This document shows, piece after piece, positions 3,680 to 53,874 of a stretch of 64,000 bases of DNA. Position 1 is the stretch's first letter. Each line of letters starts with the position of its first letter. A model generated the notes under the pieces. It worked only from the letters and a program-made list of their open reading frames with translations. It was not told the DNA's origin and ran no database searches. Origin of the DNA: an uncultured Chloroflexia bacterium (GTDB taxonomy: Bacteria; Chloroflexota; Anaerolineae; Anaerolineales; DRKV01); contig CAWGNX010000002.1 in the NCBI GenBank assembly GCA_963824065.1, forward strand, positions 488,794 through 552,793. Reading direction: 5' to 3'. The position numbers and the translations under genes were made by a program.

Positions 3680-3691
3680 TCTTCCCCAGTG

Positions 3692-6353: not shown

Positions 6354-6462
6354 GACGGGTAAACGACCACCCAGATTAATGATCAGCCCGGGTGAGGGGT
6401 TTAACCCTTCACCCGGGCTTTTGGTTTTCCTTCACGCTGCCGCGGCCCGCTGTTATTGCGGG

Positions 6463-26808: not shown

Positions 26809-26857
26809 GCAACCCAAATAAGCCATCCTATCAATCAAAAGGCAAGGAGCGAATCAA

Positions 26858-28582: not shown

Positions 28583-28615
28583 ACCTTTCCATTTGAATGA
28601 CAGGAGAAAACCCTC

Positions 28616-29170: not shown

Positions 29171-29213
29171 ATCCGGGCGTCGTCCAGGCGCCTAAACCAA
29201 TTAAGGATCGAAT

Positions 29214-30227: not shown

Positions 30228-30270
30228 GCGTGGTCATTCTACGAAGGTAGGACGGCAAAAAGAGGTGCCT

Positions 30271-31914: not shown

Positions 31915-31933
31915 ATTCATAAAAGGGAAAACC

Positions 31934-32179
31934 ATGTCAACCTCAACACCTGAATTCCTTTTTGGTTTGGACCCATTTGAACGGCCCGAATCCTTTCCGT
32001 GGGACACGCTGCCCTCGGGAAAGATCAACTCCGCTAACGTCTCTCAAACCTCCCCGCTTGCCGATGCATCCGTGGAATACGGAGTGCCCGACCCTCACCT
32101 GCCCGGCCTGCCATCCACCCGGGATCCTTTTCCAGATCCACGCACCATCCCTGGGGGCTGGGATTTGAGTGGGTTTTAA
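31934..32179 (+). CDS. Small Pro-rich hypothetical protein between leuA and leuC
   Basis: The ATG at 31934 follows AAAGGGAAAACC. The 81-aa product MSTSTPEFLFGLDPFERPESFPWDTLPSG... has no motif I recognise. Confidence 0.3.
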   Translation: MSTSTPEFLFGLDPFERPESFPWDTLPSGKINSANVSQTSPLADASVEYGVPDPHLPGLPSTRDPFPDPRTIPGGWDLSGF

Positions 32180-32188
32180 TCTCACCCG

Positions 32189-33653: not shown

Positions 33654-33658
33654 CGATC

Positions 33659-34249
33659 ATGCAGCCATTTATCGAACTCACCTCGCAAGTCATTCCACTG
33701 CACCATACCGATATCGATACGGACCAGATCATCCCGGCCTCCTACCTCAAAGTAACCGACAAATCAGGGTTGGCAGAGGGGCTTTTCTACAGCTGGCGCT
33801 ACCTGCCAGATGGCCAGCCGGACCCTGAGTTTCCCTTGAACCAGCCGCAGTATCAAAGCGCCAGCATTTTGCTGACCGGGGATAATTTTGGCTGTGGGTC
33901 CTCCCGAGAACACGCACCCTGGGCGCTGGCCGGTTGGGGTATCCGGGCAGTCATCAGCACACGCTTCGCGGATATCTTTCGCAATAATGCCCTGAAAAAC
34001 GGCCTGCTTCCGGTAGCCGTGACCCCCCAGGCCTATATCAGATTATCCGAAATTGTTGCGAAGGACCCTGCAGCAAAAGTCAAAATTCACCTGCCTTCCC
34101 AGACCATCGTCTTTCCGGATGGAGAAACGGAAGAGTTCCCGATTGATCCGTTCAATAAACTATGCCTGCTTGAGGGCACAGACACGTTGGGTTATTTACT
34201 GCTTCGTCTGCCAGAGATTACGACTTATGAACAAGCCACTGCCCGGTAG
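33659..34249 (+). CDS. leuD: 3-isopropylmalate dehydratase small subunit
   Basis: DNFGCGSSREHAPWAL motif; 196 aa. Confidence 0.9.
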   Translation: MQPFIELTSQVIPLHHTDIDTDQIIPASYLKVTDKSGLAEGLFYSWRYLPDGQPDPEFPLNQPQYQSASILLTGDNFGCGSSREHAPWALAGWGIRAVISTRFADIFRNNALKNGLLPVAVTPQAYIRLSEIVAKDPAAKVKIHLPSQTIVFPDGETEEFPIDPFNKLCLLEGTDTLGYLLLRLPEITTYEQATAR

Positions 34250-34418
34250 GAACAGCATAAACTTTGAATACGATCCTGCCTGGCGAAATCGGAGGATTTT
34301 CTGGACGCAGTCCCGGCAGCAGCCTGCTGCTGGATGCGTCCAGGCGATTTCCTGGAATGTTCCCTCGCATGCTGCCTGCTGATGATCCATTTTTGATCCG
34401 GTACGAAAGGACATTCCG

Positions 34419-36011
34419 ATGAAAAAAATCGCAATTTACGACACCACCCTGCGCGATGGTACTCAAAGAGAAGGCATCTCGCTCTCGGTAGATGACAAAT
34501 TAATAATTGCCCGCCGCCTGGATGAGTTTGGCGTGGATTACATCGAAGGAGGTTGGCCTGGTTCTAATCCCAAGGATGCTGAATTCTTTCAACGTTGCCA
34601 GAATTTACAGCTTACCCATGCACAGGTGGCGGCCTTTGGATCCACTTGCCGTAAAAACTCGCTGCCTGAGGAAGACGCCAATATTCAGGCGCTGCTGGAG
34701 GCCGGCACCCAGGTGGTTACGGTAGTTGGAAAAAGTTGGGATCTGCATGTATTTGATGTGTTGGAAACCACGCTGGAAGAAAATTTACGCATGATCAGGG
34801 CAAGCGTTGCCTATCTTAAAGCACAGGGCAAAGAAGTGATCTATGACGCGGAACATTTTTTTGATGGGTACCGCGCGAATCCAGAATATGCGCTGCGCAC
34901 CCTGAGCGCAGCCGCCGAAGGGGATGCAGATATCTTAGTTTTGTGCGACACCAACGGTGGAACGCTGCCCTGGGATATCAGCACAATTGTCACGACTGTG
35001 GCAGACGTGCTCGACAAGCCCTTGGGAATCCACACCCATGATGATGGGGGGTGCGGCACTGCCAATTCAATGGCTGCCGTGCAGGCTGGAGCGGTTCAGG
35101 TGCAGGGCACAATCAATGGCTATGGGGAGCGGGTGGGGAATGCCAACCTGTGTGAAGTGATCCCCGGCTTGCAGCTTAAGCTGGGGTATGAATGTGTGCC
35201 CCCGCAAAATCTGGCCCAGCTGACAAATCTCTCGTATTTAGTGGCAGAAGTTGCCAATCTGCCTCACGACCGGCACTATGCGTACGTGGGGGAAAGCGCA
35301 TTTGCACATAAGGGCGGCATCCATGTGGCGGCAGTGATGAAAAATGAGGATAGCTACCAGCATATCGATCCCCAGCTGGTGGGCAACCGCCGCCGGACCG
35401 TGGTATCCGAACTCTCCGGGCGCGGCAACATCCTGGATAAATCCCGCCAGCTTGGCCTGGATGTGGACAGCAAGCAGGCGCATGAAGTCTTGAACCAGAT
35501 TAAGAACCTGGAGGCGCAAGGGTTCACGTTTGAAAGTGCCGAAGGCTCGGTGAGAGTCATGCTGCAGCGCCTGCAGCCAGGCTACACACCGCCGTTTGAA
35601 CTGGTGGATTTCACCGTGATCGTTGAAAATCGCCAGGGGCGCGGTATGTTGGCTGAAGCGATGGTCAAAGTCCGCGTCAACGGCGAGCTGATCCACACCG
35701 CCGCAGAAGGTAATGGACCGGTCAGCGCGCTGGATGAAGCCCTGCGGAAAGCCCTGCAGGATGCTTACCCGAAGCTAAGCCAGGTCCGCTTGAGTGATTA
35801 CAAGGTTCGCATTCTGGACAGCGACAGCGGCACGTCTGCGGCAGTCCGGGTGCTGATTGACACAAAAAATGGGACACGCCAATGGAGCACCGTAGGAGCC
35901 AGCACCAATATTATTGAGGCTTCCTGGCGGGCTTTGGCAGACAGCATGGAATATGCCTTAATGAACGGCGCAGGCAACCAGCGCGGCGAGGTTAAACCCG
36001 ATGCAGGCTAA
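34419..36011 (+). CDS. cimA: Citramalate synthase (LeuA-family, CimA type)
   Basis: [23 protein letters not shown]...[16 protein letters not shown] and a 530-aa length fit the CimA-type subfamily as I recall it. It is a second LeuA-family gene in the same operon. Confidence 0.8.
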
Positions 36012-37107
36012 AATCACCCTGCTGCCGGGCGATGGCATCGGGCCTGAAGTTGTCGCTGCGGCGGTTTCGATCCTGGAAACCATCTCCAGCCACTTCGGGC
36101 ATAGCTTTGATTTCCACCAGGAGCTCATTGGTGGCTGCGCAATCGATCAAACCGGCAACCCGCTGCCGCCGGAGACATTATCTGCCTGCCGGCAATCCGA
36201 CGCCGTCTTGCTGGGTGCTGTGGGTGGCCCGAAATGGGACGACCCTGTGGCTGCCGTACGCCCAGAGCAAGGCCTGCTGGCGATCCGCCAGGAACTCGGG
36301 TTGTTTGGGAACCTGCGTCCGGTGCAGCCCGATCCCCACTTACTGGCGGCTTCCCCGCTCCGGCCAGAAGTCCTGGCAAACGTGGATCTGCTGGTGGTGC
36401 GCGAGCTGACCGGCGGGATTTACTTCGGTCAGCCGCGCCTGCGCAGGCAAGTGAACGGAGAAACCGAAGCTGTCGATACGATGGTCTATCGTGAATCAGA
36501 AATCGAGCGCGCCACCCGCCTGGCTTTTGACCTGGCACGCCAGCGCCGGGGAAAGGTGACTTCGGTGGACAAAGCGAATGTGCTCGAAACCTCGCGCTTG
36601 TGGCGGCAGACGGTCACCCGGGTCGCGCGAGATTATCCTGGCATCCAGCTGGAGCACATTCTGGTGGATGCGGCTGCCATGTACCTGCTCACCCGGCCGG
36701 CATCCTTTGATGTGATCGTGACGTCGAACCTGTTTGGAGATATTCTGACGGACGAAGCCTCGGTGCTGGCAGGTTCGATGGGTAATCTCCCGTCTGCATC
36801 TCTGGGAAACAACGTGAACTCCCTGGGGCAGCGGTTTGGCCTGTACGAGCCCATTCATGGCTCGGCTCCCGATATTGCCGGCAGGGGCATCGCCAACCCC
36901 GTCGGCACGATCCTTTCTCTGGCATTGTTGTGTGAGTACTCACTGGGGTTAACCACCGAAGCAGGAGCCATCCGCGTGGCAGTCAGACATGCCCTGGCAG
37001 ATGGCTGCCGAACTGCGGATGTGGCCCTCGATGGACAGCGCAGCCTCTCAACGCATGAGATGACAGCCAGAATTCAACAGAATATCGAGGTTTACCAACC
37101 TGTTTGA
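36001..37107 (+). CDS. leuB: 3-isopropylmalate dehydrogenase
   Basis: [32 protein letters not shown]. It overlaps the cimA stop by 11 nt. Confidence 0.95.
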
Positions 37108-37166
37108 GAGGCAAACAAAGCACAGGACTCATGAATGATCCATAAATTCAATCTGGAGGAGCAAAG

Positions 37167-38096
37167 ATGAAATCGAATTATATCTGGATGGATGGAGAAC
37201 TTATTCCGTATGAAAGGGCAACTGTACATTTCCTGACGCCAACGCTGCATTATGGAACCGGAGTCTTTGAAGGCATTCGCTGCTACAACACTTCCAAGGG
37301 ATCCGCGGTTTTTCGCCTGCGCGAACATCTGGACCGTTTTATAAAATCGATTTTGATCGCCGGTATCCAGGATTTTCCATACACCGCGGCCCAGCTTTAC
37401 GACGCTGTGCATCTGACGATCCGTGCCAACGGTTTTTCTTCCTGCTACATTCGACCTTTAGTCTATATGGTGGGTCCCCTGGGCCTCGATCTGGATGCCT
37501 GGCAGCCCGCAGTTGGGATTGCAGTCTGGGAGTGGGCACCCCTGCTGGGTGATGATTCCGCTGAGCGCGGCGTACGCCTGATGGTGTCTTCGTTCACCCG
37601 CCACCATCCCAATGTGATGATGACCAAAGCAAAAATTACCGGCAATTATGTCAACTCCACAATGGCAAAAACCCTGGCCAAACGTGCGGGCTTTGACGAG
37701 GCCGTCATGCTGGACCCTTCTGGTTACGTGGCTGAATGCAGCGGTGAGAATTTGTTTTTAGTGCGCAATGGCGTCATTTACACTCCGCCCCGCACAACCA
37801 TCCTGGAAGGCATCACCCGCGATGCGCTGATCAACCTGGCAATGGATCAGGAAATTCAAGTTGTTGAAGAACCCATCTCGCGCGATCAATTGTATGCGGC
37901 TGATGAAGTATTCGTGTGCGGTACAGCCGCTGAAGTCGTTCCTGTAAGTGAAATTGATTTCCGCAAGATCGGCACCGGTAAGCGCGGCCCGGTCACCCAA
38001 GCCCTGCAAACCGCATTCCGCGAAACCGTTCAGGGGCAGCATGCCCGTTCCTACGAATGGCTGGATTATGTGGATGAAACGGTTCTGGCTGTCTGA
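37167..38096 (+). CDS. ilvE: Branched-chain amino-acid aminotransferase (class IV)
   Basis: IWMDGELIPYERATVHFLTPTLHYGTGVFEGIRCY..., 309 aa. Confidence 0.9.
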   Translation: MKSNYIWMDGELIPYERATVHFLTPTLHYGTGVFEGIRCYNTSKGSAVFRLREHLDRFIKSILIAGIQDFPYTAAQLYDAVHLTIRANGFSSCYIRPLVYMVGPLGLDLDAWQPAVGIAVWEWAPLLGDDSAERGVRLMVSSFTRHHPNVMMTKAKITGNYVNSTMAKTLAKRAGFDEAVMLDPSGYVAECSGENLFLVRNGVIYTPPRTTILEGITRDALINLAMDQEIQVVEEPISRDQLYAADEVFVCGTAAEVVPVSEIDFRKIGTGKRGPVTQALQTAFRETVQGQHARSYEWLDYVDETVLAV

Positions 38097-38117
38097 TTCA
38101 GCATCCAACTCAGCCTG

Positions 38118-39002
38118 ATGACCAATAAGCCGATTTTGTCTGCAGCCTCGCCTGGAGAAAAGTCACTCCCCTTGAAGATCGCGTTTCAAGGGGAACCGGG
38201 CGCATACAGTGAACTGGCGGCTCTGGAATATTTCGGGAGCCAGTCTGCAACCAATCCCTGCCGGAGTTTTGAGGATGTGTTTGCGTCCGTCGACAGCCAG
38301 AAATGCTCCCACGGCCTGGTGCCTGTCGAAAATTCGCTCGCCGGCAGCATCCACCGCAACTATGATTTGTTGCTGAGGCACAACCTGTTTATTGTGGGCG
38401 AGTATCACCTGCGTGTTAGCCACTGCCTGATGGCCCTGCCCGGCGTACAGCTGGCAGAAATAAAAACGGTGCATTCACACCCGCAGGCGCTCGCCCAATG
38501 TGAAGCGAACCTGAAACGGCTCGGCCTGACACCGGTCGTCGAAGCTGACACCGCCGGCAGTGCCCGTTTGCTTTGTGAAAACGGCGACCAGCAGTCAGCC
38601 GCCCTGGCCTCCCGGCGGGCAGCCGAGGTGTATGGTTTGAACATCCTGGCTGAGAACATGGAGGATAATCCCGCGAATTATACGCGTTTCCTGGCTCTGG
38701 CCGCGCATGCGCTGCCTGCCCCGGATCCAGCAGATGGCGATTATAAAACCTCGATTGTATTCAGCCTGAACAATCACCCTGGGGCCTTGTTTAAAGCCTT
38801 AAGTGTGTTTGCGCTGCGGGATATCGACCTGACCAAAATCGAATCCCGCCCCATTCAGGGGAAACCCTGGGAATATCTGTTTTACGTGGATTTTGCAGGT
38901 CATGCCAGCGATGAGGTTTGCCACAAGGCGCTCGGCCACCTGGACGAGCTGACCCCTTTTCAACGTGTGCTGGGTTCTTATCCGCGCCACCGGATGCAAT
39001 AA
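38118..39002 (+). CDS. pheA: Prephenate dehydratase (PDT + ACT domains)
   Basis: [12 protein letters not shown]..., [26 protein letters not shown]. Confidence 0.85.
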
Positions 39003-40577: not shown

Positions 40578-43500
40578 TTAGGCAAACGCCGGGGGTACCG
40601 GGAAATTGTTGTTCATCAGTGCCTGGTTGGTGGCCTGCAGGCCGCCAATCGAGGCGATTCCGTGGTCGATGTAGTTGTCCGGGTCCACCGGGCTCACCAG
40701 TGCGGTATTCTCAAACCCGGTGCGCTTGCGGAAGCTGCGGTCCGCGCCGGCGTTCATCAGGTCATTGGCGATGGGCGGGTTGTTGTGATCGCTGGGCGGG
40801 TTGATCTGGTCCCACAGCAAGCCGTGGACGATCTCATGCGCCAGGGTTTCCCCGAGCATGCGCCCGTACACTTCGATGGCGAAGTTTTTCAGCTTCGGAT
40901 CGGTCATGGTGGCTGATTCGAGATCAATCAGCAGCGATTGGGTCTCCTCATCGATATCCGATGCGCCGGGATCATCATACCCTCCGGGGAAGATATCGAT
41001 GGTTTCATTGAACAAGCCCAGACCGCCGGGTGCATTGGTGCGCCCGAGCAGGCCTTCGCTGCCCGCCGGGGGATCGCCCCGCAGGGTAGCCACCATCACG
41101 TTGGCTGCCGGGACATGCCCCGGAACTGCCTCCGAGAAGCCGCCAAACTCCCAGATGGTGCGGGCATTGGCAGTTCCCAGGATACTCTCGCACGCTTCCT
41201 TGGCTTTGGCGACCACGCTGTTTTTGACGTCATCCAGCTTGAGCTTGGCCAGGGCCGCGTCAAAGACCGCCGCATCTTCAACCACCCGCACGAACTGCGG
41301 GATGGAAAGCTGGACTTTGACGCTTGCCAGCTGAGTTCCGCCGGAGTCAAACACCGCGAAGTCTGCTGCGGTTTTTCCAGGGCGTACGCCGCGCACCCGG
41401 GTCCGCCCGCTGGACGGGTTATCGATGGTGATCGTGCCGGGTTCAGCGGGTGACCAGCGGAAGGTGGATCCCGCGGGTGCATTGCGCACCGTGGCTTCTA
41501 AATCGATTACGCCGGTTTTATCCTGCCGGGAGGCGTTAAACGAGCGGTTATCCGCCGTGTTGGTCGGCGTAGGCAGGATGATAGAGGGGCGGGTGGTGTC
41601 CTCGGCGGCCTCGCCTTTGGCTTCCACTTCCACTTTCTCACCGCCGGGGCGGGCAACCTTGATATTGGCTTTGTTCTGCCCGGCAGTTTCTGCCAGGCTC
41701 TGCACGTCCGAGGTGGTCATCGGTTTGGCAGCTTCACCCGAGCCCCCGCCGATCATGCTCTTGATGGCGTTGTTGGTGAGCTCCTGGGCTTGCTGGTCAT
41801 TGATCAGGCCGTTGTCCTTGGCGGTTTTGATCGTGCGCATGGCTTTGTCGATATCGCGAGCCATCTTCGCTTGCAGCGCCAGGTCGGCCGCTTTGCCACC
41901 GAAGAACTGGGCAGTGTCCAGGGCTCCCTGGAGGGCTTCCAGGGCATTCTTCTGGGTGCCTTCCAGCCCGGTGATGTCCTTGAAGATATTGGGCGTTCCC
42001 AGTAGCTGCAGGGCGGCTGCCAGCCCGGTCGGATCAGGCGCAGCGGGTGCGGTCTGCATATTGATGATCGGAGCCGGGAAATCCTTGGCGGTCAGGTTGG
42101 GCGGTTCGGCGCGGCGGCTTTCGGTGCTGACTGGCAAAATCGCAGTCGGCGAGTCGGGGATGGGGGATTCCTCCCAGCGCCAGAAGCGTTCCTCTTCTTT
42201 GAACTCGCAGGAGTTGCAGGCGCCCATCACCGATTCGGCATACACTCCATTGGTGGGCAGTGCAATCCGCATGGGCTCGATGGGGGTGTTGGGCTGGTAG
42301 TGCTCGAGCAGGTCGATGGGGTTTTCCACATCCTGGCGGAAGGTGGGGTCGAGGTGGAAGCCGCGCGACACGGGCATCACCAGGCAGTTGCCCACGATGC
42401 CGATCAGAACATTATCTACGACCGAAGCCACGCTCTTTCCGCCGCTGTTAGGTGCTTCGAAACCATCCAGCAGCATATATCGCCGCTCTTCACTCATCTC
42501 CCGCCACAGGTGGTGGTGGGCATCTTCGATGTGCTCATTGAGGAAGTCCAGCAGGTTGCGGGCGAGTTCTTTATCTTCTTCGCGCGGGTTGCGCAGCTCC
42601 TGGCGGTTGAGCGGGGTGAAAATACGCACATCATCAAAACCTTTGATGTCGTTTTGAATGCGGGCACTGCGGAACAGGTAGTCTGACGAGTACTTGGTGC
42701 GGTACTGCATGGTGCCGCTTTCCACAATGACGCGCGAGTTCGCTGGCAGAAGCTGGAACAACCAGGGTCCCAGCCGGGAAATGCCGCTGATTTTGATGAA
42801 CTTGATGTCAGCCCGGACGAGGGGGGGTAAAGCACTCCCCAGACGCACGGATACATACAGGGGGCGGTCGTTCACGAAATCGGACAGCAAGGTGGCATCG
42901 ATGGGCAGTTCCACTTCACTGTTGTCGTTGCGCACCGCAAACACGCGCATGTTTTGCACAAAGCGTTCCGCAATCTGCGGGCCAAGCTGCTCCAGGAACA
43001 CCCGGTCTTTAAACTGCTGGTTCTTGAGGTGGTTTTTGTAAAATTCTTCGGCGTTGATAAAGGGCAGGATGTTGCCCAACCAGGTCCAGGTGCCGGCGTC
43101 AAAATCATCATCCTTGTCGCGCGGTCGGGCCAGCTCGAAACGCATGTACAGATCACCGTCCAGGTAATCCAGGGTTTGGTCGGCGTAGCGCCCCACGGGC
43201 AGGTCAGAGCCAACATAGTTATTTTCGATCCGTTCCAGGGCATCGAAACCTTTGCCCAGGCTGCGCGGCACGCCGCTGCGCAGCGTGTTGCGCCAGCGCA
43301 GGGTTTTATCGCGGTTGAAACGGCTCATCAAGAGCGGCACGAACAGGCATTCCTGCACATCCACCAGGCGCTGGCGCACGATCAAGTGGCGCAGCACTTC
43401 GAAATACTGCATTGTGATGGCATGGCAGTGATTGTAGTTTGCCAGGGTTTCGGTCGTTGCCGTGACCCGCTCCCCCTGGCGCATGGTCTGGACAACGGTC

Positions 43501-45446
43501 GAGCGCTGGGAGCGCACGGAGGAAGCTGACTGGATGGTGCGGTCGCGCAGCTGATTGAGAGCGCTGGCCGCGGTATTGCGCGAGCTGTTCTGGAAGGCCG
43601 AACTGCTGGCACTGGAGGTACCGCCCCCAATGCCCAGCAAGCCCCCCAGGAAGCCTGCTCCACCGAAGATGCCACCCGCAATTCCCAAGCCGCCGCCGAA
43701 CGAGCCGGTCGAAGAGTGCGAGCCGCCGCTGACGCTTTCGCTCACGGTGCCGCGCACCACTTCATTGATATCCCGGTCACGCGAGATTGCGGCATCCAGC
43801 TGTTCCGTTTCCACGATCGCTTCTGTGCGGGCTGCGGATTCACGCCGCTCCCAATCAACGATGGCGATCTGTTTTTTCTGCCCAGGGGCGAGCGGCAGGC
43901 TGTACAGCAGGTTGCCCATGGAGTAACCATCTGCGACCCATTCCTGTTTGAAGTGCAGGATGTGCCCGTGTGCGATGTTGCAGGCCTGGTAAATAGTGGG
44001 TTCGTCGTCCCAGTCTACCGGGGCATCGCAGGTTAGGCGGGAGCGGTCAGGTTTTAACTGGATGTGCTTGGCGAGCAGGCGCAGCAGGTCGCCGTGGACC
44101 GTCAGGTTTGCCGCCGCGGCGATTTTGGTGAGGGTAAATCCATCGGGGTCGCGCGCCAGAGTCTTGAGCACCCTGGCGTCGATCATATCGGTCGTAAAGC
44201 CGGTCTGAGCCGAGGCTGCCACCGAGCGCAAGGAGACATCTGGGGTTGAGGCGTCGGCGGTGCTGAAAGCGGCAGTCGCCACAGCCTTGGAGCCTTGTAA
44301 AACGGCCGCAATCTGGCGGATATCAATTTTGTTCGGCTCCTCAAGGGTCAGACCTTTGATGTCGGGCTGCGTGGTGCGCAGGACATAGGAAAATGAAAAC
44401 TCTTCCAGGGTTCGGTTGGGACGGGTGAAATCGACACATTTTCCCGCGCCGGGGTCGCTGGAGTAAACCCCATCGCCGCGAGCCAGGTCGACCATGTCGG
44501 GATCGCGCGGCACCAGATCGGTTTCTTTCCCGCAGCCGCAGTCATCCTCATCATCATCGCACATACAGTCATCCACATCGACGACCAGGATGACCGATTC
44601 TGGGAAGATCCCACCGTCCTCGAGGTGGATGGGTACCGAAACGGGCTCTTCTTTGAGCGATACATCGCCATGCGCGGCGCTGAAACTGCCGACCGGGTAA
44701 GGACCAGAGAAATATCCGGAGGCATCGGTCTGCACCACAATCATGGCACGGAAATCTGCCGCCTCAGGTTGCGGAGCCTGAGCTCCCCAGATCACGACCT
44801 GGCGGTTGGCAATCTGGACTTTGCCAGCCCGGTCGATCACTCGCCCGCGCAGCTTGGTGGGGCGGCCAAAAGCAGGGTCTTCATTGGGTAAGGTTTCCGC
44901 GTACCGCCGCGGTTCCACCCGGAAGCGCAGCTGATCGCCTAGCTTTTCGCCGGGAACGCTGGCGCTAAACAGGGTTTCTCCATCTGGCGCAGAGACCCGG
45001 AAGGCCACATCGCCCTGGATGTCGGCGGGGTTGGGAAAGGTCAGGGTCACGTCGCCGCTTTTGGGCAGCTCCAGGCTGATCTGGGCGCCCACCCACAGGG
45101 TGATCTGGTCATCGTCCTCGCCGGGCAGGCGTTCCCGCCGGGTGAAGGTAGCAGACAGACGGTGGCTGGTGTAGTCGTCCGCACCAGACGGGGAGGTAAG
45201 GATCACTTTGACGACCTGCGGAGGCAGCTCGTCGCCGCTTTCTTTTTCTCCGGCAACGACCCGGTCGGCAAAGCGGCTGACCATCGCTTCGCTGACCCCG
45301 GGCACTGCCGCCAGCTCAGCAACGGTGCGGAAGCGGCCCACCGTGGAGCGGTAGGTGATCAGACGAGAAGCCAGGCCCGCGCCGATCCCCGGCAGGGAGG
45401 CAAGCTCAGCGGCACTGGCTGTGTTAAGATTAATTTTTTGCTGCAT
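40578..45446 (-). CDS. 1622-aa multidomain protein of unknown function (HhH N-terminus, prealbumin-like domain, Cys/Asp cluster, glycine zipper, Ig-like domain, C-terminal HExxH)
   Basis: Uninterrupted ORF with AAAGGAAG RBS. INLNTASAAELASLPGIGAGLASRLI (ComEA-type HhH). GRVIDRAGKVQIANRQVVIW...TDASGYFSG. DVDDCMCDDDEDDCGCG. GGGLGIAGGIFGGAGFLGGLLGIGGG (about 43600-43735). LAHEIVHGLLW (HEIVH encoded at 40824-40838). Confidence 0.85.
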   Translation of the reverse strand: MQQKINLNTASAAELASLPGIGAGLASRLITYRSTVGRFRTVAELAAVPGVSEAMVSRFADRVVAGEKESGDELPPQVVKVILTSPSGADDYTSHRLSATFTRRERLPGEDDDQITLWVGAQISLELPKSGDVTLTFPNPADIQGDVAFRVSAPDGETLFSASVPGEKLGDQLRFRVEPRRYAETLPNEDPAFGRPTKLRGRVIDRAGKVQIANRQVVIWGAQAPQPEAADFRAMIVVQTDASGYFSGPYPVGSFSAAHGDVSLKEEPVSVPIHLEDGGIFPESVILVVDVDDCMCDDDEDDCGCGKETDLVPRDPDMVDLARGDGVYSSDPGAGKCVDFTRPNRTLEEFSFSYVLRTTQPDIKGLTLEEPNKIDIRQIAAVLQGSKAVATAAFSTADASTPDVSLRSVAASAQTGFTTDMIDARVLKTLARDPDGFTLTKIAAAANLTVHGDLLRLLAKHIQLKPDRSRLTCDAPVDWDDEPTIYQACNIAHGHILHFKQEWVADGYSMGNLLYSLPLAPGQKKQIAIVDWERRESAARTEAIVETEQLDAAISRDRDINEVVRGTVSESVSGGSHSSTGSFGGGLGIAGGIFGGAGFLGGLLGIGGGTSSASSSAFQNSSRNTAASALNQLRDRTIQSASSVRSQRSTVVQTMRQGERVTATTETLANYNHCHAITMQYFEVLRHLIVRQRLVDVQECLFVPLLMSRFNRDKTLRWRNTLRSGVPRSLGKGFDALERIENNYVGSDLPVGRYADQTLDYLDGDLYMRFELARPRDKDDDFDAGTWTWLGNILPFINAEEFYKNHLKNQQFKDRVFLEQLGPQIAERFVQNMRVFAVRNDNSEVELPIDATLLSDFVNDRPLYVSVRLGSALPPLVRADIKFIKISGISRLGPWLFQLLPANSRVIVESGTMQYRTKYSSDYLFRSARIQNDIKGFDDVRIFTPLNRQELRNPREEDKELARNLLDFLNEHIEDAHHHLWREMSEERRYMLLDGFEAPNSGGKSVASVVDNVLIGIVGNCLVMPVSRGFHLDPTFRQDVENPIDLLEHYQPNTPIEPMRIALPTNGVYAESVMGACNSCEFKEEERFWRWEESPIPDSPTAILPVSTESRRAEPPNLTAKDFPAPIINMQTAPAAPDPTGLAAALQLLGTPNIFKDITGLEGTQKNALEALQGALDTAQFFGGKAADLALQAKMARDIDKAMRTIKTAKDNGLINDQQAQELTNNAIKSMIGGGSGEAAKPMTTSDVQSLAETAGQNKANIKVARPGGEKVEVEAKGEAAEDTTRPSIILPTPTNTADNRSFNASRQDKTGVIDLEATVRNAPAGSTFRWSPAEPGTITIDNPSSGRTRVRGVRPGKTAADFAVFDSGGTQLASVKVQLSIPQFVRVVEDAAVFDAALAKLKLDDVKNSVVAKAKEACESILGTANARTIWEFGGFSEAVPGHVPAANVMVATLRGDPPAGSEGLLGRTNAPGGLGLFNETIDIFPGGYDDPGASDIDEETQSLLIDLESATMTDPKLKNFAIEVYGRMLGETLAHEIVHGLLWDQINPPSDHNNPPIANDLMNAGADRSFRKRTGFENTALVSPVDPDNYIDHGIASIGGLQATNQALMNNNFPVPPAFA

Positions 45447-46685: not shown

Positions 46686-49600
46686 ATGGGCAAACTACCG
46701 AGCTTACTTCCCAGGATCATCTTAATCCTCATATTCCTTTGTTTTCCTTTCCCTGCAGCGAGCTACTCGCACATGACTACCGCCACCGCAGATCCGATCG
46801 TATACCTGTCTGCGGCGGACGACGGATCGGAAATCACCGTGACGACCGGGACGCTGCTGGAGCTGATTTTGCCGGCCAACCCTTCCACGGGCTACATGTG
46901 GAACCTCTCCACGCTCGATCCAGACCTGTTTGGGCTGGAAAGGCGCGTTTTCGAGCCTGAGAGCGATCTGACCGGTGCACCTGGCCTGGAATCTATTCAG
47001 CTCAGGGTTCAGCAGCCTGGCGAAATCCGGTTGCTGATAGAAAACCGGCGAGGCTGGGAACGTGATGCTCTGGCACTTGACACATTCGAGGTGCAGATCA
47101 CAATCCTTGGCGAGCCGCTGGAAAACCCCGGACCTGATGCCGAACCAATTTCCCCACTGCCAGCACCGGTGGAACCCACAACCAACTTGACTACCGATCT
47201 CATCCTGCCGGAATCGTTCGATTGGCGCAGTTTGAACGGCCTAACTCCGATAAAAAACCAGGGAGGCTGCGGCAGCTGCTGGGCATTTGCGACGACCGGT
47301 GTGCTCGAAGCAGCGCAAAAAATCCACACCGGGCAGGATGTCGATTTCGCTGAACAGTTCCTGCTGGGGCACAACGAGGCCAACTGGTCCTGCAGCGGCG
47401 GCTCGCAGGCTTTTGATTACCATAATTTTCGCATTGCCTCTTTGGAACGCGAAGCTGGCCTGCTTCTGGAGCAGGACTGCCCCTACCGGAGCAACAACAG
47501 TCGCTGCATTGGCAGCCAGCCGTTCAGGCATCCCTACACCAGCGATGCTAGCATGCAGGTCCAGGCGAGCACCGCTGCGATCAAACAGGCAATCTTGCAG
47601 TACGGTCCGGTATATACGCTCATTTGCGCCGGGCCAGGTTTCAGCGCGTACCACAGCGGTGTCTTCGAAACAAATGAAAGCAGCTACTGCAGTGGCGGTA
47701 CAAACCATGCCGTCGTGCTGGTCGGGTGGGATGACAGCCTGGGCAGCCAGGGCGCGTGGATTTTACGCAACTCGTGGGGAACGGCCTGGGGCGAAGAAGG
47801 TTATATGAACATTGCCTACGGAATCTCGAACGTGGGGCGCAACAACCTGACGGCAATCTACGATGGCAGTCCGCTCAGCCCAGAGGTGCAGTACGGCGGA
47901 GTCTTCAAAGAATTAATCCTCGACTATCCATATCTGTATACAGGAATCGGCAACCGTCTGGCCGTATTTGATGTTTCGCAGCCGGACCAGCCGATTTTGT
48001 TGGGAGCCAGCATCCCGCTGCCGGACACCATCCGGGGTGTGGCGGTACAGTCCGGGTATGCATACGTTACCACCTTTTGGAGAGGATTGAGCGTATTCGA
48101 TATCAGCAACCCAGGCCCACCTCGTTATGTGTACGGTGATTCATACCTGAGCGGCTCATCTGGTGAAGATGTTGTAATCGCAGATGGGACTGCGTATTAC
48201 ATTGACAATTTCCATCTAAATATCCTCAGCCTCGCTGATCCTGCCCGGCCTGTTCGCCTGGGTTCGATGGTCACAAGCGGAAATCCCAAGGCTCTGGAAG
48301 TAGCAGGAAATTTTGCCTACGTGGCTTCCTGGTCGGTTGGATTTTAATGTGATCAATGTGTCCAATCCCGCCAGCCCCACCAATGCTGCCCTGGTGGATA
48401 CGCCGGGGTTTGCCATGGATATCGCCCTTCAGGGACAGTATGCCTATATTGCCGACCAGACCGGTGGGCTGCGCGTCTTCGATATATCAATCCCGACTGC
48501 CCCGGTGGAAGTGGCTGTTTATGATACGCCGGGATCGGCTGAAGGGGTTGATATATTCGGCACACGCGCCTATGTAGCGGATGGCGAAGCTGGCCTGCTC
48601 GTCCTGGATATCACCAACCCCACCGCTCTGGTTCTGATCACCAGCCTGGATACCCCGGGTACGGCTTACTCGCTGAAGGCAGCCGGCGACCTGGTCTACC
48701 TGGCGGACGGCGAAGCAGGTCTGCGCCTGCTGGATATCAGCGAGGCACCACCGATCGAAGTCGGGTCTTACCAGCAGCTCGGCATTCCACTGGACGTGCA
48801 GGCCAATGGTGATGTACTTTATACTGCAGCAGGGAGACAGGGTTTAATCGTGCATGACGCCAGCCATTTGCCGGACCTCGTGGAAACTACCCGGCTGCCG
48901 GCTGTGGACTCGCTGAACAAACTCTCCCTGGCTGAGGCTACCCTTTACGGCCTGGATAGTGAAAACCTGCGTGTATTCAGCCTGGAAGATCCGCTGCAGC
49001 CCCAAGCGCTGGGATCCCTTCAAGTGGGACCAGCGAGCGACCTCGCGGTTTTGGGCGATTTTGCCTACCTGGCAGCCGGTACATCGGGTATAAAAATTGT
49101 CGACTTGCACGAACCAGCCAACCCCCAGGACCTGGGTTTGGTACCGCTGACCCCTGGTGGAGGCCTCACAAAACTCATCCAGGCGAGAGACAATTTCCTT
49201 TACGTTCTGGCGGAGCCTGTCACCATCGATTCGGTTCCCACGGGTGGGGGTCTGTTCGTCCTGGACGCCAGCCTGCCTGAAAGGCCTCTGCCAGTTTTGT
49301 ACTGGCCCGCCACCACATCACCAACTGATTTTTCTCTCGTGGAGCACTACGCGGTGGTGGCAGAGACGACTTCCTGGTGGGAGGGAGATTTCTCCCGGGG
49401 CGGAGTCCATGTGCTGGACCTTAGCAGCCCACCGGACCCGGTTGAGGTGTCAAGGGTTTTAATCGCCGAAGGGAATTTGCTAGCCGCTGAAGGGAAAACG
49501 GTGTATATCAATGATGGCCCGCGCGGTATAGTGGCAATCAACCTGGAAAACCCGGCTGAGCCCCAGCTGCAGGCAAGCCTGAAATATTTGAGCGGGGTGA

Positions 49601-49932
49601 CCGATCTGCACATATCCGGAAATCTTCTGTGGATGAGTTCGCCGCAAAATGGGCTGCTGGCAGCCTGGAGGTTGAAAGATCGCAAAACAGCTTATATTCC
49701 CCCTGAAGGCGGCGAGCTGGTAGGAAAAAGCGACCAGGCCCAGTTTGTGTTCCCGGCTGGAGTTTTTGCTTCCGAGAGCGCAGTTACTTTCCAGCAGTAC
49801 ATGGTTGATCCACTGATTCCAGGATTGGATAGCGCTGCGATGACCTACCGTCTGTCACCTGTGACACACGCCGACAGCAGTGCTGCTGACCTGCTGGGTG
49901 CCTATACTGCTCGTGCTGAGTTATACGCATAG
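46686..49932 (+). CDS. Secreted chagasin-like inhibitor (I42) domain + papain-family C1 cysteine peptidase + LVIVD-type beta-propeller repeats; one frameshift near 48330
   Basis: Signal-like N-terminus. I42 loops: ANPSTGYMW, GAPG, RRGWE. C1 motifs: NQGGCGSCWAFA (Cys), NHAVVLVGWDD (His), LRNSWGTAWGEEGYM. Repeated ...YAYVAD..GGLRVFDIS.P..P... units run through ORF 48313..49932. Confidence 0.75.
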
Positions 49933-50930
49933 TGTTGCACCGGAAGAACTCGTTGAAGCTCTTCCAGCTGGAGGGCGGCGCCTGGGAAATCGAAGACTCC
50001 AGCCAGGTTGACATTCCCGGCCACCGTGTGATTGCTACCCCAAGCGACGCAGGGACCTTCGCTGTGATGGGCTGCCTGCCACCAGGCCAGGTGATCCTGA
50101 GCGGACCCGCGTCTGCGAGCACCAATACGCCGGTCACGTTCAGGGCACGCGTGGACCCTGCCAGCCTGGCGGGACCGTTCACATTTACCTGGAACGCAGA
50201 CGAACATGACCCGGTTGAGATAACCCAGGATTCCCGCGAGTCAGAAGTGAGCTTCACCTGGACCGCAGCGGGTCCCAAGCAGGTCACAGTCGAAGTGGAA
50301 AATTGCGGCGGCTCAATAGAGGCATCCTTCGTGGCAGATATCAACCTGCCTGTACCTGCGATACCGGTTGGTTTATCCGCTTCTGATGGCACGTTTTCCG
50401 GGCAGATTTTGATCAGCTGGGAACAAGCCCACGAAGCAGTGACCTACCGATTGTTCCGTAGTCTGGATACGACCCCACCAGACAACCCCCTGGTCGAACT
50501 GAACGGCACTACCTACAACGATACCAAGGCAGAGGCAGGAATGCTCTATCACTATTGGGTTAAAGGATGTAACCTCACCGGGTGCTCCGATTTGAGCCTG
50601 GTCGAGACAGGCTTCCGAGCACTGGAGCCGCCGGCAGATCTGCGTGTCACAGACCCGGTGCTGTCCCGCCAGGTGACGCTCAGCTGGCAGTCGGTGCCCG
50701 AGGCGCACTGGTACCAGGTATTCCGCAGCCTGGATGACCAACCACCAGTTGAACCCCTGGCGGATCAACTCACTTCAACGGGCTACCAGGATTTCAATGT
50801 GGAGCCGGGTGCGGCCTACACTTATTGGGTGAAAGCGTGCTGCGAGCTTGGTTGTTCAGGGTTCAGTGCCCCGGCGCTGGGCCAAACTCTGGCGGGCAGA
50901 TCCGTGTTCCTGCCATTGATCGGTCGGTAA
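49932..50930 (+). CDS. PKD domain plus two Fn3-like repeats; probably the C-terminal continuation of the preceding protease gene (frame change at about 49925)
   Basis: PVTFRARVDP...FTWNADEHD...VSFTWTAAGPKQVTVEVENCGG (PKD). Two units follow of ...ISWEQ/LSWQS...YRLFRS/YQVFRS...YHYWVKGC/YTYWVKAC. There is no RBS or signal of its own. Confidence 0.6.
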   Translation: MLHRKNSLKLFQLEGGAWEIEDSSQVDIPGHRVIATPSDAGTFAVMGCLPPGQVILSGPASASTNTPVTFRARVDPASLAGPFTFTWNADEHDPVEITQDSRESEVSFTWTAAGPKQVTVEVENCGGSIEASFVADINLPVPAIPVGLSASDGTFSGQILISWEQAHEAVTYRLFRSLDTTPPDNPLVELNGTTYNDTKAEAGMLYHYWVKGCNLTGCSDLSLVETGFRALEPPADLRVTDPVLSRQVTLSWQSVPEAHWYQVFRSLDDQPPVEPLADQLTSTGYQDFNVEPGAAYTYWVKACCELGCSGFSAPALGQTLAGRSVFLPLIGR

Positions 50931-51734: not shown

Positions 51735-51953
51735 ACCGGCTGTCCTCCTTGTGTAGAACAAATGTTTGCTCACTAGTTTACCAGAATTATACTAAATTTT
51801 ACATTAATAATCTGAATATTTGTTCGGTAAATGGAACAAGCCGCGGTTTCTTCGTGCTATACTCACAATGGCTGGTGTTAAACACCAGCTGATCCCGGGC
51901 GGTGGTGGTGAACTACCGGGAAAACGTAAGCAATGTATATACCGGGGGAATGG

Positions 51954-53333
51954 ATGGAAAACCTGGGTTTTCCTGGCATAGCAATCCAGCGTGCGCGCCG
52001 GCTGCTCGTCGCCTGCGGCGTGATGATGGGCAGCCTGAGCTGTCTTGCTGCCTTGCTGTTGTTGGTCGTCCCGTCCGAAAATCCGACCCTGATCCTGCCG
52101 GGCATCACAGTAATTGCCCTGGGTTTACTGGGGTTGCCGGTTGTTGCACTGGTAAGCCTATACCGCGGCATCCCCAGCGTGCAGGAAAAAAAAGAGATTG
52201 AACAGCGGCTCTCTCAGGTCTCATCTGAGCTGGAACAGGCTCAGAAAGATCCACAGCTCCGTGATCGTGTTCCTGCGGTTCAGCATCGAAAGCAGCGTAT
52301 CCAGGCGCAGTTCGTTCCTTATCAGGAGCTCAGCTTTGCAAGCTATTTGCGCATAGTTGTGACCTCGTTAAACACTGCTGTTATCAAGGTTGGTGCGCTA
52401 TTCATCTCCCTGGGCGGGCTCGCGGCCTGCTGTGCGGTTGGCTACAGCTTGCTTGCCGCCAGCGATTCGGCTGCAGATGTGCCTCCAGTTGATCGCCCGC
52501 ACATTGGTCTGGCTGTTTCTCCCAGCGCAGCGCCCATCCGGCTAACGGCTACTCCCACAAACAGCGTGACGGCTACCGTGCTTCCAACCCGGACTGCCTC
52601 AATCACTTCCACCCCGGTGCTTTTCACCGCGGTGGCATCTACCGCAGTGGATTTCACCGCTGTGCCTTCTGCCACTGCCACAATGACTCCCCTTCCGGCT
52701 CAGGTGGTGGCTGGTAGTGCCTGCCTGCAGGGAACCCCGCAGGAGGCCGATCTGCTTAGCGTGCTGGACGGAGACACAATCGAAGTGCGCCTGCTGGAGG
52801 ACCAGCAGGTGTACCGCCTGCGCTACATCGGCATCGATTCTCCCGAATCCGGAGCGCCTTTCGCGGCTGAAGCCGCCGCAGCCAATGCCCGGATGGTGGC
52901 AGGGCAGCTGCTGCTCCTTTTCCGGGATGTCTCGCAGGTGGATCGCTACGGGCGGCTGCTGCGCTACGTGGTGGCGGGAGAAATTTTTGTTAATTACGAG
53001 CTGACCCGCCAGGGGCTTGCCTCGCCGGTAAATTTCCCGCCCGACGAGGCCTGTGCCAGCACATTTTTACAGGCCGAAGGGGATGCCAGGGCGGACCAGG
53101 CCGGCTGGTATGCGCCTGGCGTTGTGAATCCATTTAGCCCGGCTGGGTCCGCCCCAGCTGGAGGCGAGGGCGGCAGCCGGCCGGGCTGCTCACCCGCTTA
53201 CCCAGACATCTGCCTGCCACCACCGCCGCCCGACCTGGACTGCGCAGATGTGCCGGCGCGCCGCTTCCGGGTGCTGCCACCCGATCCACACCATTTTGAC
53301 GGGGATGGGGACGGGATCGGGTGCAAATCCTGA
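51954..53333 (+). CDS. Membrane-anchored staphylococcal-nuclease-like (SNase) protein with C-terminal Excalibur Ca-binding motif
   Basis: Two or three hydrophobic helices and a Thr/Ala-rich linker. SNase core: VLDGDTIEV...YRLRYIGIDSPE...DRYGRLLRYV. C-terminus: DLDCADV...FDGDGDGIGC. Confidence 0.75.
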   Translation: MENLGFPGIAIQRARRLLVACGVMMGSLSCLAALLLLVVPSENPTLILPGITVIALGLLGLPVVALVSLYRGIPSVQEKKEIEQRLSQVSSELEQAQKDPQLRDRVPAVQHRKQRIQAQFVPYQELSFASYLRIVVTSLNTAVIKVGALFISLGGLAACCAVGYSLLAASDSAADVPPVDRPHIGLAVSPSAAPIRLTATPTNSVTATVLPTRTASITSTPVLFTAVASTAVDFTAVPSATATMTPLPAQVVAGSACLQGTPQEADLLSVLDGDTIEVRLLEDQQVYRLRYIGIDSPESGAPFAAEAAAANARMVAGQLLLLFRDVSQVDRYGRLLRYVVAGEIFVNYELTRQGLASPVNFPPDEACASTFLQAEGDARADQAGWYAPGVVNPFSPAGSAPAGGEGGSRPGCSPAYPDICLPPPPPDLDCADVPARRFRVLPPDPHHFDGDGDGIGCKS

Positions 53334-53336
53334 TTT

Positions 53337-53378
53337 TTATCCACATGATCTGCCGCAGTTATCCACAGTTTATCCACA
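53337..53378 (+). promoter_or_regulatory. Three perfect DnaA boxes (TTATCCACA) in direct orientation
   Basis: Boxes at 53337-53345, 53359-53367 and 53370-53378, read directly. They lie in the 55-bp gap between the nuclease stop and the next start (53389). Confidence 0.6.
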
Positions 53379-53388
53379 ATTTTGAACT

Positions 53389-53874
53389 ATGCTGAGTCTC
53401 ACATCCCATGGAGAGGCGGCTTTGCAGGAATCCAAACGGCTATTCCCCCCTGCTTACCTGCTTGGCACGCTGCTGGTGATGCTGGGCCTGTACCGTTTCT
53501 TCCCGGTTACAACCCTGCTGCCCATCCCGTGGAACCTGGCGGGCACTTTGCTGCTAATCGTGGGAATCATCTTGAACCTGCAGGGTGCGGGGCTTTTCCA
53601 GGCTGCCGGTACCACCATCCGCCCCGGCGAATCATCAGCTGCCCTGGTGACGCATGGGGTGTACCGGTTGAGCCGCAACCCGATGTACCTGGGGTTTGTG
53701 CTTATCCTCCTGGGAGCAGCCGGGCTGCTGGGTGCCTTGACGCCGTTCTTCACCATCCCCTGGTTTCTATTCCTCATTCAGCAGCGCTTTATCCTGGCTG
53801 AAGAACGCATGCTGTCAGAGCGCTTTAGCGCCGCGTACAACGCTTACTGCCTGCGGGTGCGGCGCTGGATCTAA
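53389..53874 (+). CDS. Isoprenylcysteine carboxyl methyltransferase / phospholipid methyltransferase family membrane protein
   Basis: LVTHGVYRLSRNPMYLGFVLILLG motif; 4-5 hydrophobic helices. Confidence 0.75.
   Translation: MLSLTSHGEAALQESKRLFPPAYLLGTLLVMLGLYRFFPVTTLLPIPWNLAGTLLLIVGIILNLQGAGLFQAAGTTIRPGESSAALVTHGVYRLSRNPMYLGFVLILLGAAGLLGALTPFFTIPWFLFLIQQRFILAEERMLSERFSAAYNAYCLRVRRWI

What the first reader, a model, noticed from the sequence alone, without database searches (positions are those of the whole stretch)
53337..53378. Three perfect, helically phased DnaA boxes in a 55-bp intergenic gap far from any replication gene
Seen directly: TTATCCACA at 53337, 53359 and 53370. All three are on the same strand, with start-to-start spacing of 22 and 11 bp (two turns and one turn of the helix). 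They sit immediately upstream of the start (53389) of an ICMT-family membrane methyltransferase gene. Three exact 9-mers in about 40 bp cannot be chance. Established knowledge: TTATCCACA is the canonical high-affinity DnaA box. Clusters outside oriC act as DnaA-titrating or DnaA-reactivating sites (datA, DARS) or as DnaA-repressed promoters. No dnaA or dnaN gene and no obvious AT-rich unwinding element is nearby, so an origin is unlikely.
Basis: partly seen in the sequence, partly recalled or inferred. Interest (0 to 1): 0.6.

Follow-up and report, generated by a model that had tools for sequence, protein, structure and literature searches.

The report
Conserved triple DnaA-box operator, Anaerolineae gene
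Three perfect binding sites for the replication initiator DnaA sit just upstream of a membrane methyltransferase gene in an uncultured Anaerolineae-type bacterium and are conserved in its relatives. This is most likely an ordinary gene-control site bound by DnaA, not a replication origin.

Summary
TTATCCACA occurs at 53337, 53359 and 53370, all on the + strand, with 22 and 11 bp between starts. These are the only exact copies in 64 kb (0.22 expected).

The sites lie between the stop of a secreted-type SNase nuclease gene and a PEMT/ICMT-family membrane methyltransferase (MT) gene. All four syntenic lineages I could retrieve (66-100% protein identity) keep three boxes in the same order and orientation. 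The 11-bp pair is invariant. Of the box columns, 24 of 27 are invariant, against 10 of 28 for the other intergenic columns. None of 84 non-syntenic homologue loci has boxes.

A -10-like TAnnnT lies exactly 9 nt after box 3 in all four lineages. I found no AT-rich unwinding element, no DnaA-trios, no skew switch and no dnaA or dnaN, so this is not oriC. The all-same orientation fails the DARS core rule. The short gap leaves no room for a datA-like IHF site.

Best reading (about 0.5): a DnaA operator over the MT promoter or 5' end, probably repressive, with some incidental titration of DnaA. It is a new member of a known kind, of modest interest.

Not tested: DnaA binding, the lineage's own box consensus, and the distance to oriC.

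The parts
51933..53333 (+). Upstream gene: a 466-aa SNase-domain nuclease. Its stop codon (TGA, 53331-53333) lies 3 nt before box 1.
   Evidence: PF00565 SNase, 5.3e-12. The orthologue P0122 sits upstream of the methyltransferase gene in L001. The C-terminal HFDGDGDGIGC resembles the Excalibur Ca-binding motif by my reading only; Pfam did not call it.
53337..53345 (+). DnaA box 1 (TTATCCACA).
   Evidence: Relatives have TTATCCACA (L002), TAATCCACA (L083) and TTATACACA (L001). 7 of 9 columns are invariant. The distance to box 2 is 22, 22, 21 and 22 bp.
53348..53356 (.). Unfilled fourth slot of the 11-bp register (ATCTGCCGC, 3 of 9 matches to the box). It might be a low-affinity ATP-DnaA site. 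This is inferred only.
   Evidence: Geometry read. The spacer is poorly conserved: 4 of 13 columns are invariant.
53359..53367 (+). DnaA box 2 (TTATCCACA).
   Evidence: 9 of 9 columns are invariant in four lineages.
53370..53378 (+). DnaA box 3 (TTATCCACA), 2 bp after box 2. Together they form a 'double DnaA box'.
   Evidence: 8 of 9 columns are invariant (ATATCCACA in L001). The 11-bp spacing to box 2 is identical in all four lineages. E. coli DnaA prefers pairs of boxes 2-3 bp apart (PMC11317965).
53388..53393 (+). -10-like hexamer TATGCT. T1, A2 and T6 are invariant (TAnnnT), and it lies exactly 9 nt after box 3 in all four lineages. I infer it is the methyltransferase promoter.
   Evidence: Alignment A2 has invariant columns at 53388, 53389 and 53393, and the spacing was read. 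The consensus promoter scanner did not call it because there is no good -35.
53394..53402 (+). Conserved TGAGnCTC(A) motif, a small inverted repeat of unknown role. It could be the transcription-start region or the N-terminal codons.
   Evidence: Invariant columns in A2.
53410..53416 (+). Shine-Dalgarno-like GGAGAGG, 5 nt before TTG 53422.
   Evidence: L083 has GGGAGG before its ATG and L001 has GGAG before its GTG.
53422..53874 (+). PEMT/ICMT-family membrane methyltransferase gene. The likely start is TTG 53422; the alternative is ATG 53389, which gives 161 aa.
   Evidence: Pfam. Homologues of 149 aa start here. NCBIfam gives only weak sub-threshold hits to ICMT, LmtA and MddA, so the substrate is unknown.

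Best explanation
This is a conserved DnaA operator at the 5' end of the membrane methyltransferase (MT) gene.

Proposed mechanism: DnaA binds the perfect box 2 + box 3 pair (2-bp gap) as a head-to-tail dimer, and binds box 1 two register steps upstream. ATP-DnaA may bridge the degenerate slot between them. The array covers about -63 to -22 relative to a start inferred from the conserved TAnnnT at 53388-53393. It also lies in the path of any read-through from the SNase gene promoter. Bound DnaA would therefore most likely lower MT transcription, either by occluding the -35/spacer region or by acting as a roadblock. That would tie expression of this envelope enzyme to the cell's DnaA level and nucleotide state. 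Three high-affinity sites also soak up a little DnaA as a side effect.

Shown: the sequence, the phasing, the purifying selection on the boxes, and their restriction to this syntenic junction.

Inferred: that DnaA is the binder, the position of the promoter, and the sign of regulation.
For: - The three sites are exact consensus boxes and are not chance.
- All four syntenic lineages keep three boxes in the same orientation, with an invariant 11-bp pair.
- 24 of 27 box columns are invariant, against 10 of 28 non-box intergenic columns. Third-codon-position identity in the adjacent gene is only 52-57%.
- A TAnnnT stays exactly 9 nt after box 3 in all four lineages.
- The cluster stays at one gene junction. 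It is absent from 84 loci of more distant homologues that lack this synteny.
- In E. coli ChIP-seq, pairs of boxes 2-3 bp apart are the preferred in vivo DnaA target, and they lie upstream of regulated genes (PMC11317965).
- B. subtilis DnaA represses ywlC and yydA and activates sda from such clusters, and the gene-linked clusters are the ones conserved across species (PMC2533591, PMC3245932).
Against: - No binding or expression data exist.
- The consensus promoter scan finds no sigma-70-type promoter here, because there is no -35. The gene may simply be co-transcribed with the SNase gene.
- The start codon is ambiguous. The TAnnnT overlaps the candidate ATG at 53389, so its conservation could be partly due to coding.
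- There is no known functional link between DnaA and this enzyme family.
- Only four lineages were available, and two of the sequences contain indel errors.
- I could not confirm the DnaA-box consensus of Anaerolineae at their own oriC.
Confidence: 0.5

Rival explanations
1. The cluster is a DnaA-titrating or DnaA-activity-modulating site, like the B. subtilis DnaA-box clusters (DBCs) or functionally like datA. On this view its position next to the methyltransferase gene is incidental and its real role is control of replication initiation.
For: The three highest-affinity boxes sit in filament register and share one direction, as the essential datA boxes do (PMC5742627). DnaA-box clusters outside oriC restrain initiation in B. 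subtilis and Streptomyces (PMC3245932). Chloroflexi are not known to have the SeqA or Hda systems (my background knowledge), so titration sites might matter more there.
Against: There are only three boxes. Stable in vivo binding in B. subtilis was linked to about four or more clustered boxes (PMC2533591). There is no room for an IHF site or a 262-bp datA-like region. Titration sites tend to move between species, whereas this one is fixed at one junction with a fixed distance to a TAnnnT. Proximity to oriC is unknown, and there is no second cluster in the 64 kb window.
Confidence: 0.2
2. The repeats are the operator of another transcription factor, for example a winged-helix response regulator that reads 11-bp direct repeats. 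On this view they only happen to equal the DnaA box.
For: Direct repeats with an 11-bp period are typical of OmpR/PhoB-type regulators (my background knowledge). In the next-closest homologues the methyltransferase gene is followed by an OmpR-type two-component system. The lineage's own DnaA-box consensus was not verified.
Against: For an unrelated operator to match the 9-mer TTATCCACA three times would be an extreme coincidence. The variants in relatives (TTATACACA, ATATCCACA, TAATCCACA) stay within one mismatch of the box, and TTATACACA fits TTATNCACA. No regulator gene is found in the syntenic neighbourhood. The same box layout lies next to dnaA in at least 20 of 120 metagenomic loci.
Confidence: 0.12
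3. The cluster is the chromosomal origin (oriC), or a part or remnant of one, displaced from dnaA.
For: It is a cluster of phased consensus boxes. An 18%-GC stretch lies 1.5 kb upstream at about 51772-51830.
Against: The whole non-coding gap is 55-88 bp and sits between conserved coding sequences. The lowest-GC 50-mer at the cluster is 36% GC and consists of the boxes themselves. At most 1 of 6 consecutive triplets fits a DnaA-trio. Cumulative GC skew shows no turning point here. There is no dnaA, dnaN or other replication gene in the window. The AT-rich stretch 1.5 kb away carries no boxes. It looks like the SNase gene's conserved promoter region, with TGcTATACT.
Confidence: 0.03

Closest known systems
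E. coli 'double DnaA box' regulatory sites (Stringer, Fitzgerald and Wade 2024, PMC11317965)
   Same: Two same-orientation boxes lie 2-3 bp apart near a gene start, outside oriC. Boxes 2 and 3 are a perfect instance with a 2-bp gap.
   Different: Here a third perfect box sits two register steps upstream. The target gene is a membrane methyltransferase, not one of the nucleotide, replication or repair genes. The organism is an uncultured Anaerolineae-type bacterium, and no binding data exist.
B. subtilis DnaA-box clusters outside oriC (yydA, ywlC, sda and others; PMC2533591, PMC3245932)
   Same: They are intergenic clusters of consensus boxes that control the adjacent gene, and they are conserved across related species when gene-linked.
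   Different: The B. subtilis clusters have more boxes (about four or more are needed for stable binding) and lie near oriC. This one has only three, and its distance to oriC is unknown.
E. coli datA and DARS1/DARS2 (PMC5742627)
   Same: All are small chromosomal DnaA-box clusters outside oriC. A DARS core also has three boxes, and the essential datA boxes share one direction.
   Different: DARS box I is inverted relative to boxes II and III, whereas here all three point the same way. datA needs an IHF site and about 262 bp, whereas here the spacers are 13 and 2 bp in a gap of 55-88 bp.
DnaA-oligomerisation arrays of oriC, and dnaA-upstream arrays
   Same: They share the 11-bp register of head-to-tail 9-mers. 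The identical layout was found in at least 120 metagenomic loci, 20 of them with a DnaA Walker-A motif nearby.
   Different: This locus has no unwinding element, no DnaA-trios and no dnaA or dnaN. It is flanked tightly by unrelated genes.

Membership tests
DnaA-box regulatory site (double DnaA box type) | 9-mers matching TTATNCACA | tested here: met
   There are three exact TTATCCACA sites. Variants in relatives are within one mismatch.
DnaA-box regulatory site (double DnaA box type) | Two boxes in the same orientation, 2-3 bp apart | tested here: met
   Boxes 2 and 3 are 2 bp apart in all four lineages. The criterion comes from PMC11317965.
DnaA-box regulatory site (double DnaA box type) | Overlaps or adjoins a promoter whose output changes with DnaA | tested here: inconclusive
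   A conserved TAnnnT lies 9 nt after box 3, but the promoter scan finds nothing. Expression cannot be tested with these tools.
DnaA-box regulatory site (double DnaA box type) | Bound by DnaA in vivo or in vitro | not testable with these tools
   This needs EMSA, footprinting or ChIP.
B. subtilis-type stable DnaA-box cluster (DBC) | About four or more closely clustered boxes | tested here: not met
   There are three boxes within one mismatch, and the fourth register slot matches only 3 of 9. The criterion comes from PMC2533591.
B. subtilis-type stable DnaA-box cluster (DBC) | Location close to oriC | not testable with these tools
   The 1.73-Mb source contig could not be retrieved. No origin is present in the 64 kb window.
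DARS | Three-box core with box I opposite to boxes II and III | tested here: not met
   All three boxes are on the + strand. The rule comes from PMC5742627.
datA | Essential boxes share one direction | tested here: met
   PMC5742627.
datA | IHF-binding site between boxes, within a minimal region of about 262 bp | tested here: not met
   The spacers are 13 and 2 bp, and the whole gap of 55-88 bp lies between coding sequences.
oriC | AT-rich unwinding element next to the boxes | tested here: not met
   The minimum GC is 36% per 50 bp, and that stretch is the boxes themselves. Elsewhere the window reaches 18%.
oriC | DnaA-trio repeats beside a box pair | tested here: not met
   At most 1 of 6 consecutive triplets fits TA[G/A], on either strand of 53200-53520.
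oriC | GC-skew switch and/or dnaA-dnaN neighbourhood | tested here: not met
   Cumulative skew has no turning point at 53 kb. No DnaA or DnaN appears in the Pfam scans or the signature scan.

The most novel reading that the evidence does not exclude
The array is a minimal ATP-DnaA sensor: three anchor boxes plus one empty slot in an 11-bp register. It would couple replication-initiation potential to a membrane lipid or isoprenoid methyltransferase in Chloroflexi. Alternatively, it doubles as a datA-like DnaA-inactivating site in a phylum that lacks the IHF-, Hda- and SeqA-type controls. Because acidic membrane lipids recharge DnaA in E. coli (PMC5742627), a DnaA-controlled PEMT-family enzyme could close a feedback loop between membrane and initiator.
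Probability: 0.1. Interest if true: 0.6.

Novelty: new member of a known kind. Interest (0 to 1): 0.3.

Why it matters
Nothing is known experimentally about DnaA regulons or replication control in Anaerolineae or Chloroflexi. This conserved, very clean three-box site is a ready-made probe for DnaA binding, by EMSA or a reporter, in that phylum. It also names one candidate DnaA-controlled gene, an envelope methyltransferase of unknown substrate. The finding does not challenge current ideas, because DnaA boxes that control non-replication genes are well documented in E. coli, B. subtilis and Caulobacter.

Tried and rejected
- **Chance:** rejected. 0 of 100 shuffles reach 3 copies in 64 kb.
- **oriC:** rejected on DUE, DnaA-trios, skew and gene context.
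- **DARS:** rejected on box orientation.
- **Structured RNA or riboswitch in the gap:** Rfam found nothing in the whole window. The fold of 53320-53440 is weaker than its shuffles (z = +1.6).
- **Intrinsic terminator between the two genes:** none found.
- **Boxes as a general feature of this methyltransferase family:** rejected. 0 of 80 GTDB species loci and 0 of 4 further loci have boxes, and none of these is syntenic.
- **SNase homologue search:** it gave only one further full-length orthologue, the one already in L001.
- **Source contig:** its DNA was not retrievable, cluster look-up gave no accession or name, and the genome is not among the GTDB representatives scanned. Genome-wide box mapping and oriC location were therefore impossible.
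- **Literature searches for oriC or DnaA boxes in Anaerolineae or Chloroflexi:** nothing specific found.
- **Leaderless-mRNA reading of ATG 53389:** no TAnnnT at the required -12 to -7 in the window or in L001 (read by eye).

Full report
**Observation.** The window carries TTATCCACA at 53337-53345, 53359-53367 and 53370-53378, all on the + strand, with 22 and 11 bp between starts. No other exact copy exists on either strand of the 64 kb window. Dinucleotide-preserving shuffles give 0.22 copies on average, and none of 100 shuffles gives three. From those numbers I estimate the chance of three same-strand copies within 42 bp at about 1e-9 (my own rough estimate). With one mismatch allowed there are 13 more sites, all scattered, and no second cluster.

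**Genes on either side.** The boxes fill the 55 bp between two genes.
- Upstream, the stop codon of a 466-aa SNase-domain nuclease gene (51933-53333; PF00565, 5.3e-12).
- Downstream, the ATG at 53389 of a PEMT/ICMT-family membrane methyltransferase (MT) gene (PF04191, 1.5e-12; PF04140, 3.8e-6).

NCBIfam gives only sub-threshold hits to ICMT, LmtA and MddA, so the enzyme's substrate is unknown.

**Wider context.** Pfam scans of about 50 ORFs across the window show an ilv/leu operon, two-component systems, peptidases, MFS transporters and a STAND-type ATPase region. They show no replication gene. A DnaA signature/Walker-A scan of the window is also negative. The source is a 1.73-Mb contig held by NCBI and ENA, but its DNA could not be fetched and no name is on record. 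The closest relative's record name reads 'Anaerolineaceae_DSYU01'. More distant homologues come from Anaerolineae and other Chloroflexota MAGs.

**Conservation.** I retrieved three independent relatives that share the local gene order SNase - MT - DUF4180.

| Lineage | MT protein identity | Box 1 | Box 2 | Box 3 | Spacing (bp) |
|---|---|---|---|---|---|
| Window | 100% | TTATCCACA | TTATCCACA | TTATCCACA | 22 + 11 |
| L002 | 85% | TTATCCACA | TTATCCACA | TTATCCACA | 22 + 11 |
| L083-L087 | 70% | TAATCCACA | TTATCCACA | TTATCCACA | 21 + 11 |
| L001 | 66% | TTATACACA | TTATCCACA | ATATCCACA | 22 + 11 |

In the four-way alignment, 24 of 27 box columns are invariant, against 10 of 28 for the remaining intergenic columns. 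The 13-bp spacer between boxes 1 and 2 keeps only 4 invariant columns. Third codon positions of the adjacent MT gene are only 52-57% identical in pairwise comparisons, so neutral sites are close to saturation. The boxes are therefore under purifying selection.

The cluster is not a feature of the protein family. None of 80 loci from other GTDB species (up to 54% identity) has boxes upstream, and neither do four further loci of 50-53% homologues. None of these loci shares the synteny.

**Anatomy downstream of the boxes.** Exactly 9 nt after box 3, all four lineages have a hexamer TAnnnT: TATGCT in the window, L002 and L083, and TAGCAT in L001. T1, A2 and T6 are invariant. A conserved TGAGnCTC follows it.

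The window's ATG at 53389 overlaps this hexamer, and it is not positionally conserved: L001's ATG lies 3 nt further on. Most homologues are 149 aa and begin at the window ORF's codon 12. At or within one codon of that position the window has TTG (53422), L001 has GTG and L083 has ATG. Each is preceded by a GGAG-type Shine-Dalgarno sequence. L002 differs from the window by a 1-nt indel between the two candidate starts.

From this I infer the following layout:
- 53379-53421 is promoter plus 5' UTR.
- The -10 element is at 53388-53393.
- Transcription starts near 53400.
- Translation starts at TTG 53422.

This is inference only. The consensus scanner calls no promoter here because there is no -35. 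A coding N-terminal extension is not excluded, because the frame stays open in three lineages. For comparison, the SNase gene has a well-conserved promoter-like region 1.5 kb upstream, with TGcTATACT at about 51855-51863. Read-through transcription across the boxes is therefore also plausible, and no terminator lies between the two genes.

**Not an origin.**
- The gap is 55-88 bp between conserved coding sequences.
- The lowest-GC 50-mer near the cluster is 36% GC and is made of the boxes themselves. Elsewhere the window reaches 18%.
- At most 1 of 6 consecutive triplets fits a DnaA-trio.
- Cumulative GC skew has no turning point at 53 kb.
- No dnaA or dnaN is present.
- No structured RNA is predicted.

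**Comparison with known systems.**
- **DARS.** The review PMC5742627 states that DARS cores have three boxes, with box I opposite to boxes II and III. Here all three point the same way, so this defining feature is not met.
- **datA.** The same review states that minimal datA is 262 bp, with same-direction boxes 2, 3 and 7 and an IHF site between boxes. The direction matches, but there is no room for the rest.
- **B. subtilis clusters.** Ishikawa et al. (PMC2533591) link stable binding in B. subtilis to about four or more clustered high-affinity boxes. They show repression of ywlC and yydA and activation of sda. Okumura et al. (PMC3245932) note that potential clusters sit upstream of different genes in different species.
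- **E. coli double boxes.** Stringer et al. (PMC11317965) show that E. coli DnaA binds in vivo almost only at pairs of boxes 2-3 bp apart. Boxes 2 and 3 are a perfect such pair, and their spacing is the one feature that never varies among the four lineages.
- **Metagenomic arrays.** None is orthologous to this locus. Twenty carry a DnaA-type Walker-A motif (GxxGLGKTHL) in the fetched DNA. This shows that the module is the common DnaA-oligomer platform found next to dnaA.

**Most likely mechanism (confidence about 0.5).** DnaA binds the box 2-3 pair as a head-to-tail dimer and also binds box 1. The 22-bp step leaves exactly one 9-mer slot (53348-53356, 3 of 9 matches) that ATP-DnaA could bridge. 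The array spans about -63 to -22 of the inferred promoter and lies in the path of read-through from the SNase promoter. DnaA occupancy should therefore lower MT expression, either by occlusion or as a roadblock. Activation cannot be excluded. The fixed location and the fixed distance to the TAnnnT favour local gene control over a purely titrating role.

**Rivals.**

| Rival | Confidence |
|---|---|
| Titration or DBC-like site | 0.2 |
| Operator of another regulator that coincides with the DnaA box | 0.12 |
| Origin or origin remnant | 0.03 |

**Limits.**
- No binding or expression evidence exists.
- The lineage's own oriC and box consensus could not be examined.
- The distance to oriC is unknown.
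- Only four lineages were available.
- The window assembly appears to contain frameshifts, and so does L002. The box spacing nevertheless agrees between independent assemblies.

**Verdict.** It fits a well-known category, DnaA boxes acting outside oriC at a gene's 5' end. It is a new member of a known kind, and interest is modest (0.3).

Noticed in passing
window 32189-33653; also 6974-10085 (- strand), 12424-13588, 46686-50930: Several genes appear split by frameshifts. leuC is in two overlapping frames, with Aconitase profile positions 1-271 and 268-463. A BTAD/NB-ARC + TPR protein is split in two. A periplasmic binding protein is truncated. The peptidase C1-LVIVD-PKD protein is in three ORFs where L001 has a single gene of at least 1413 aa. 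This suggests indel errors in a long-read assembly, or pseudogenes.
   Followed up: partly
window 51780-51865; L001 4395-4480: A strongly conserved AT-rich non-coding element (ACCAGAATT..AAATTTTACATTAATAATC.GAATATTTGTTC) is followed by CGTGCTATACTCACAA (an extended -10-like TGcTATACT), upstream of the SNase nuclease gene. It reaches 18% GC over 50 bp and has no DnaA boxes. It is probably the nuclease gene's promoter or regulatory region.
   Followed up: partly
window 2597-10085 (- strand): Two EAD1 (effector-associated domain 1) proteins, a trypsin-like peptidase and a BTAD/NB-ARC/NACHT STAND-type ATPase with TPR repeats lie together. This is a candidate conflict or defence module.
   Followed up: no
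window 40578-45446 (- strand): A 1622-aa ORF has only an N-terminal helix-hairpin-helix (HHH_3, ComEA-like) Pfam match. The rest is unannotated.
   Followed up: no
L208 3001-5285; L209 3001-5325; L210 807-1973: In the next-closest homologues (50-53% identity), the methyltransferase gene is immediately followed by an OmpR-type response regulator, and in L208 and L209 also by a HAMP histidine kinase. This suggests the enzyme family is tied to envelope signalling in those lineages. No DnaA boxes are present there.
   Followed up: partly
L088-L207 (e.g. L171 234-330, L148 3847-3905, L094, L111): Metagenomes hold many head-to-tail arrays of (A/G)GTTATCCACA with an exact 11-bp period, up to 10 or more copies. 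Most are on contigs with no recognisable dnaA in the fetched DNA; only 20 of 120 have a DnaA Walker-A motif nearby. What the rest are (phage, plasmid, titration arrays, or short contigs that miss dnaA) was not determined.
   Followed up: partly
window 53394-53402; L001 5970-5978: A small inverted repeat TGAGnCTCA is conserved just downstream of the boxes in three of four lineages. L083 has TGAGTCTCC. Its role is unknown.
   Followed up: no
window 25132-39002: A long ilv-leu-pheA biosynthetic gene row (ilvD, ilvB/N, ilvC, leuA, leuC/D, a second leuA-like gene, leuB, ilvE, pheA) has no Rfam-detectable leader or T-box anywhere in the window.
   Followed up: no
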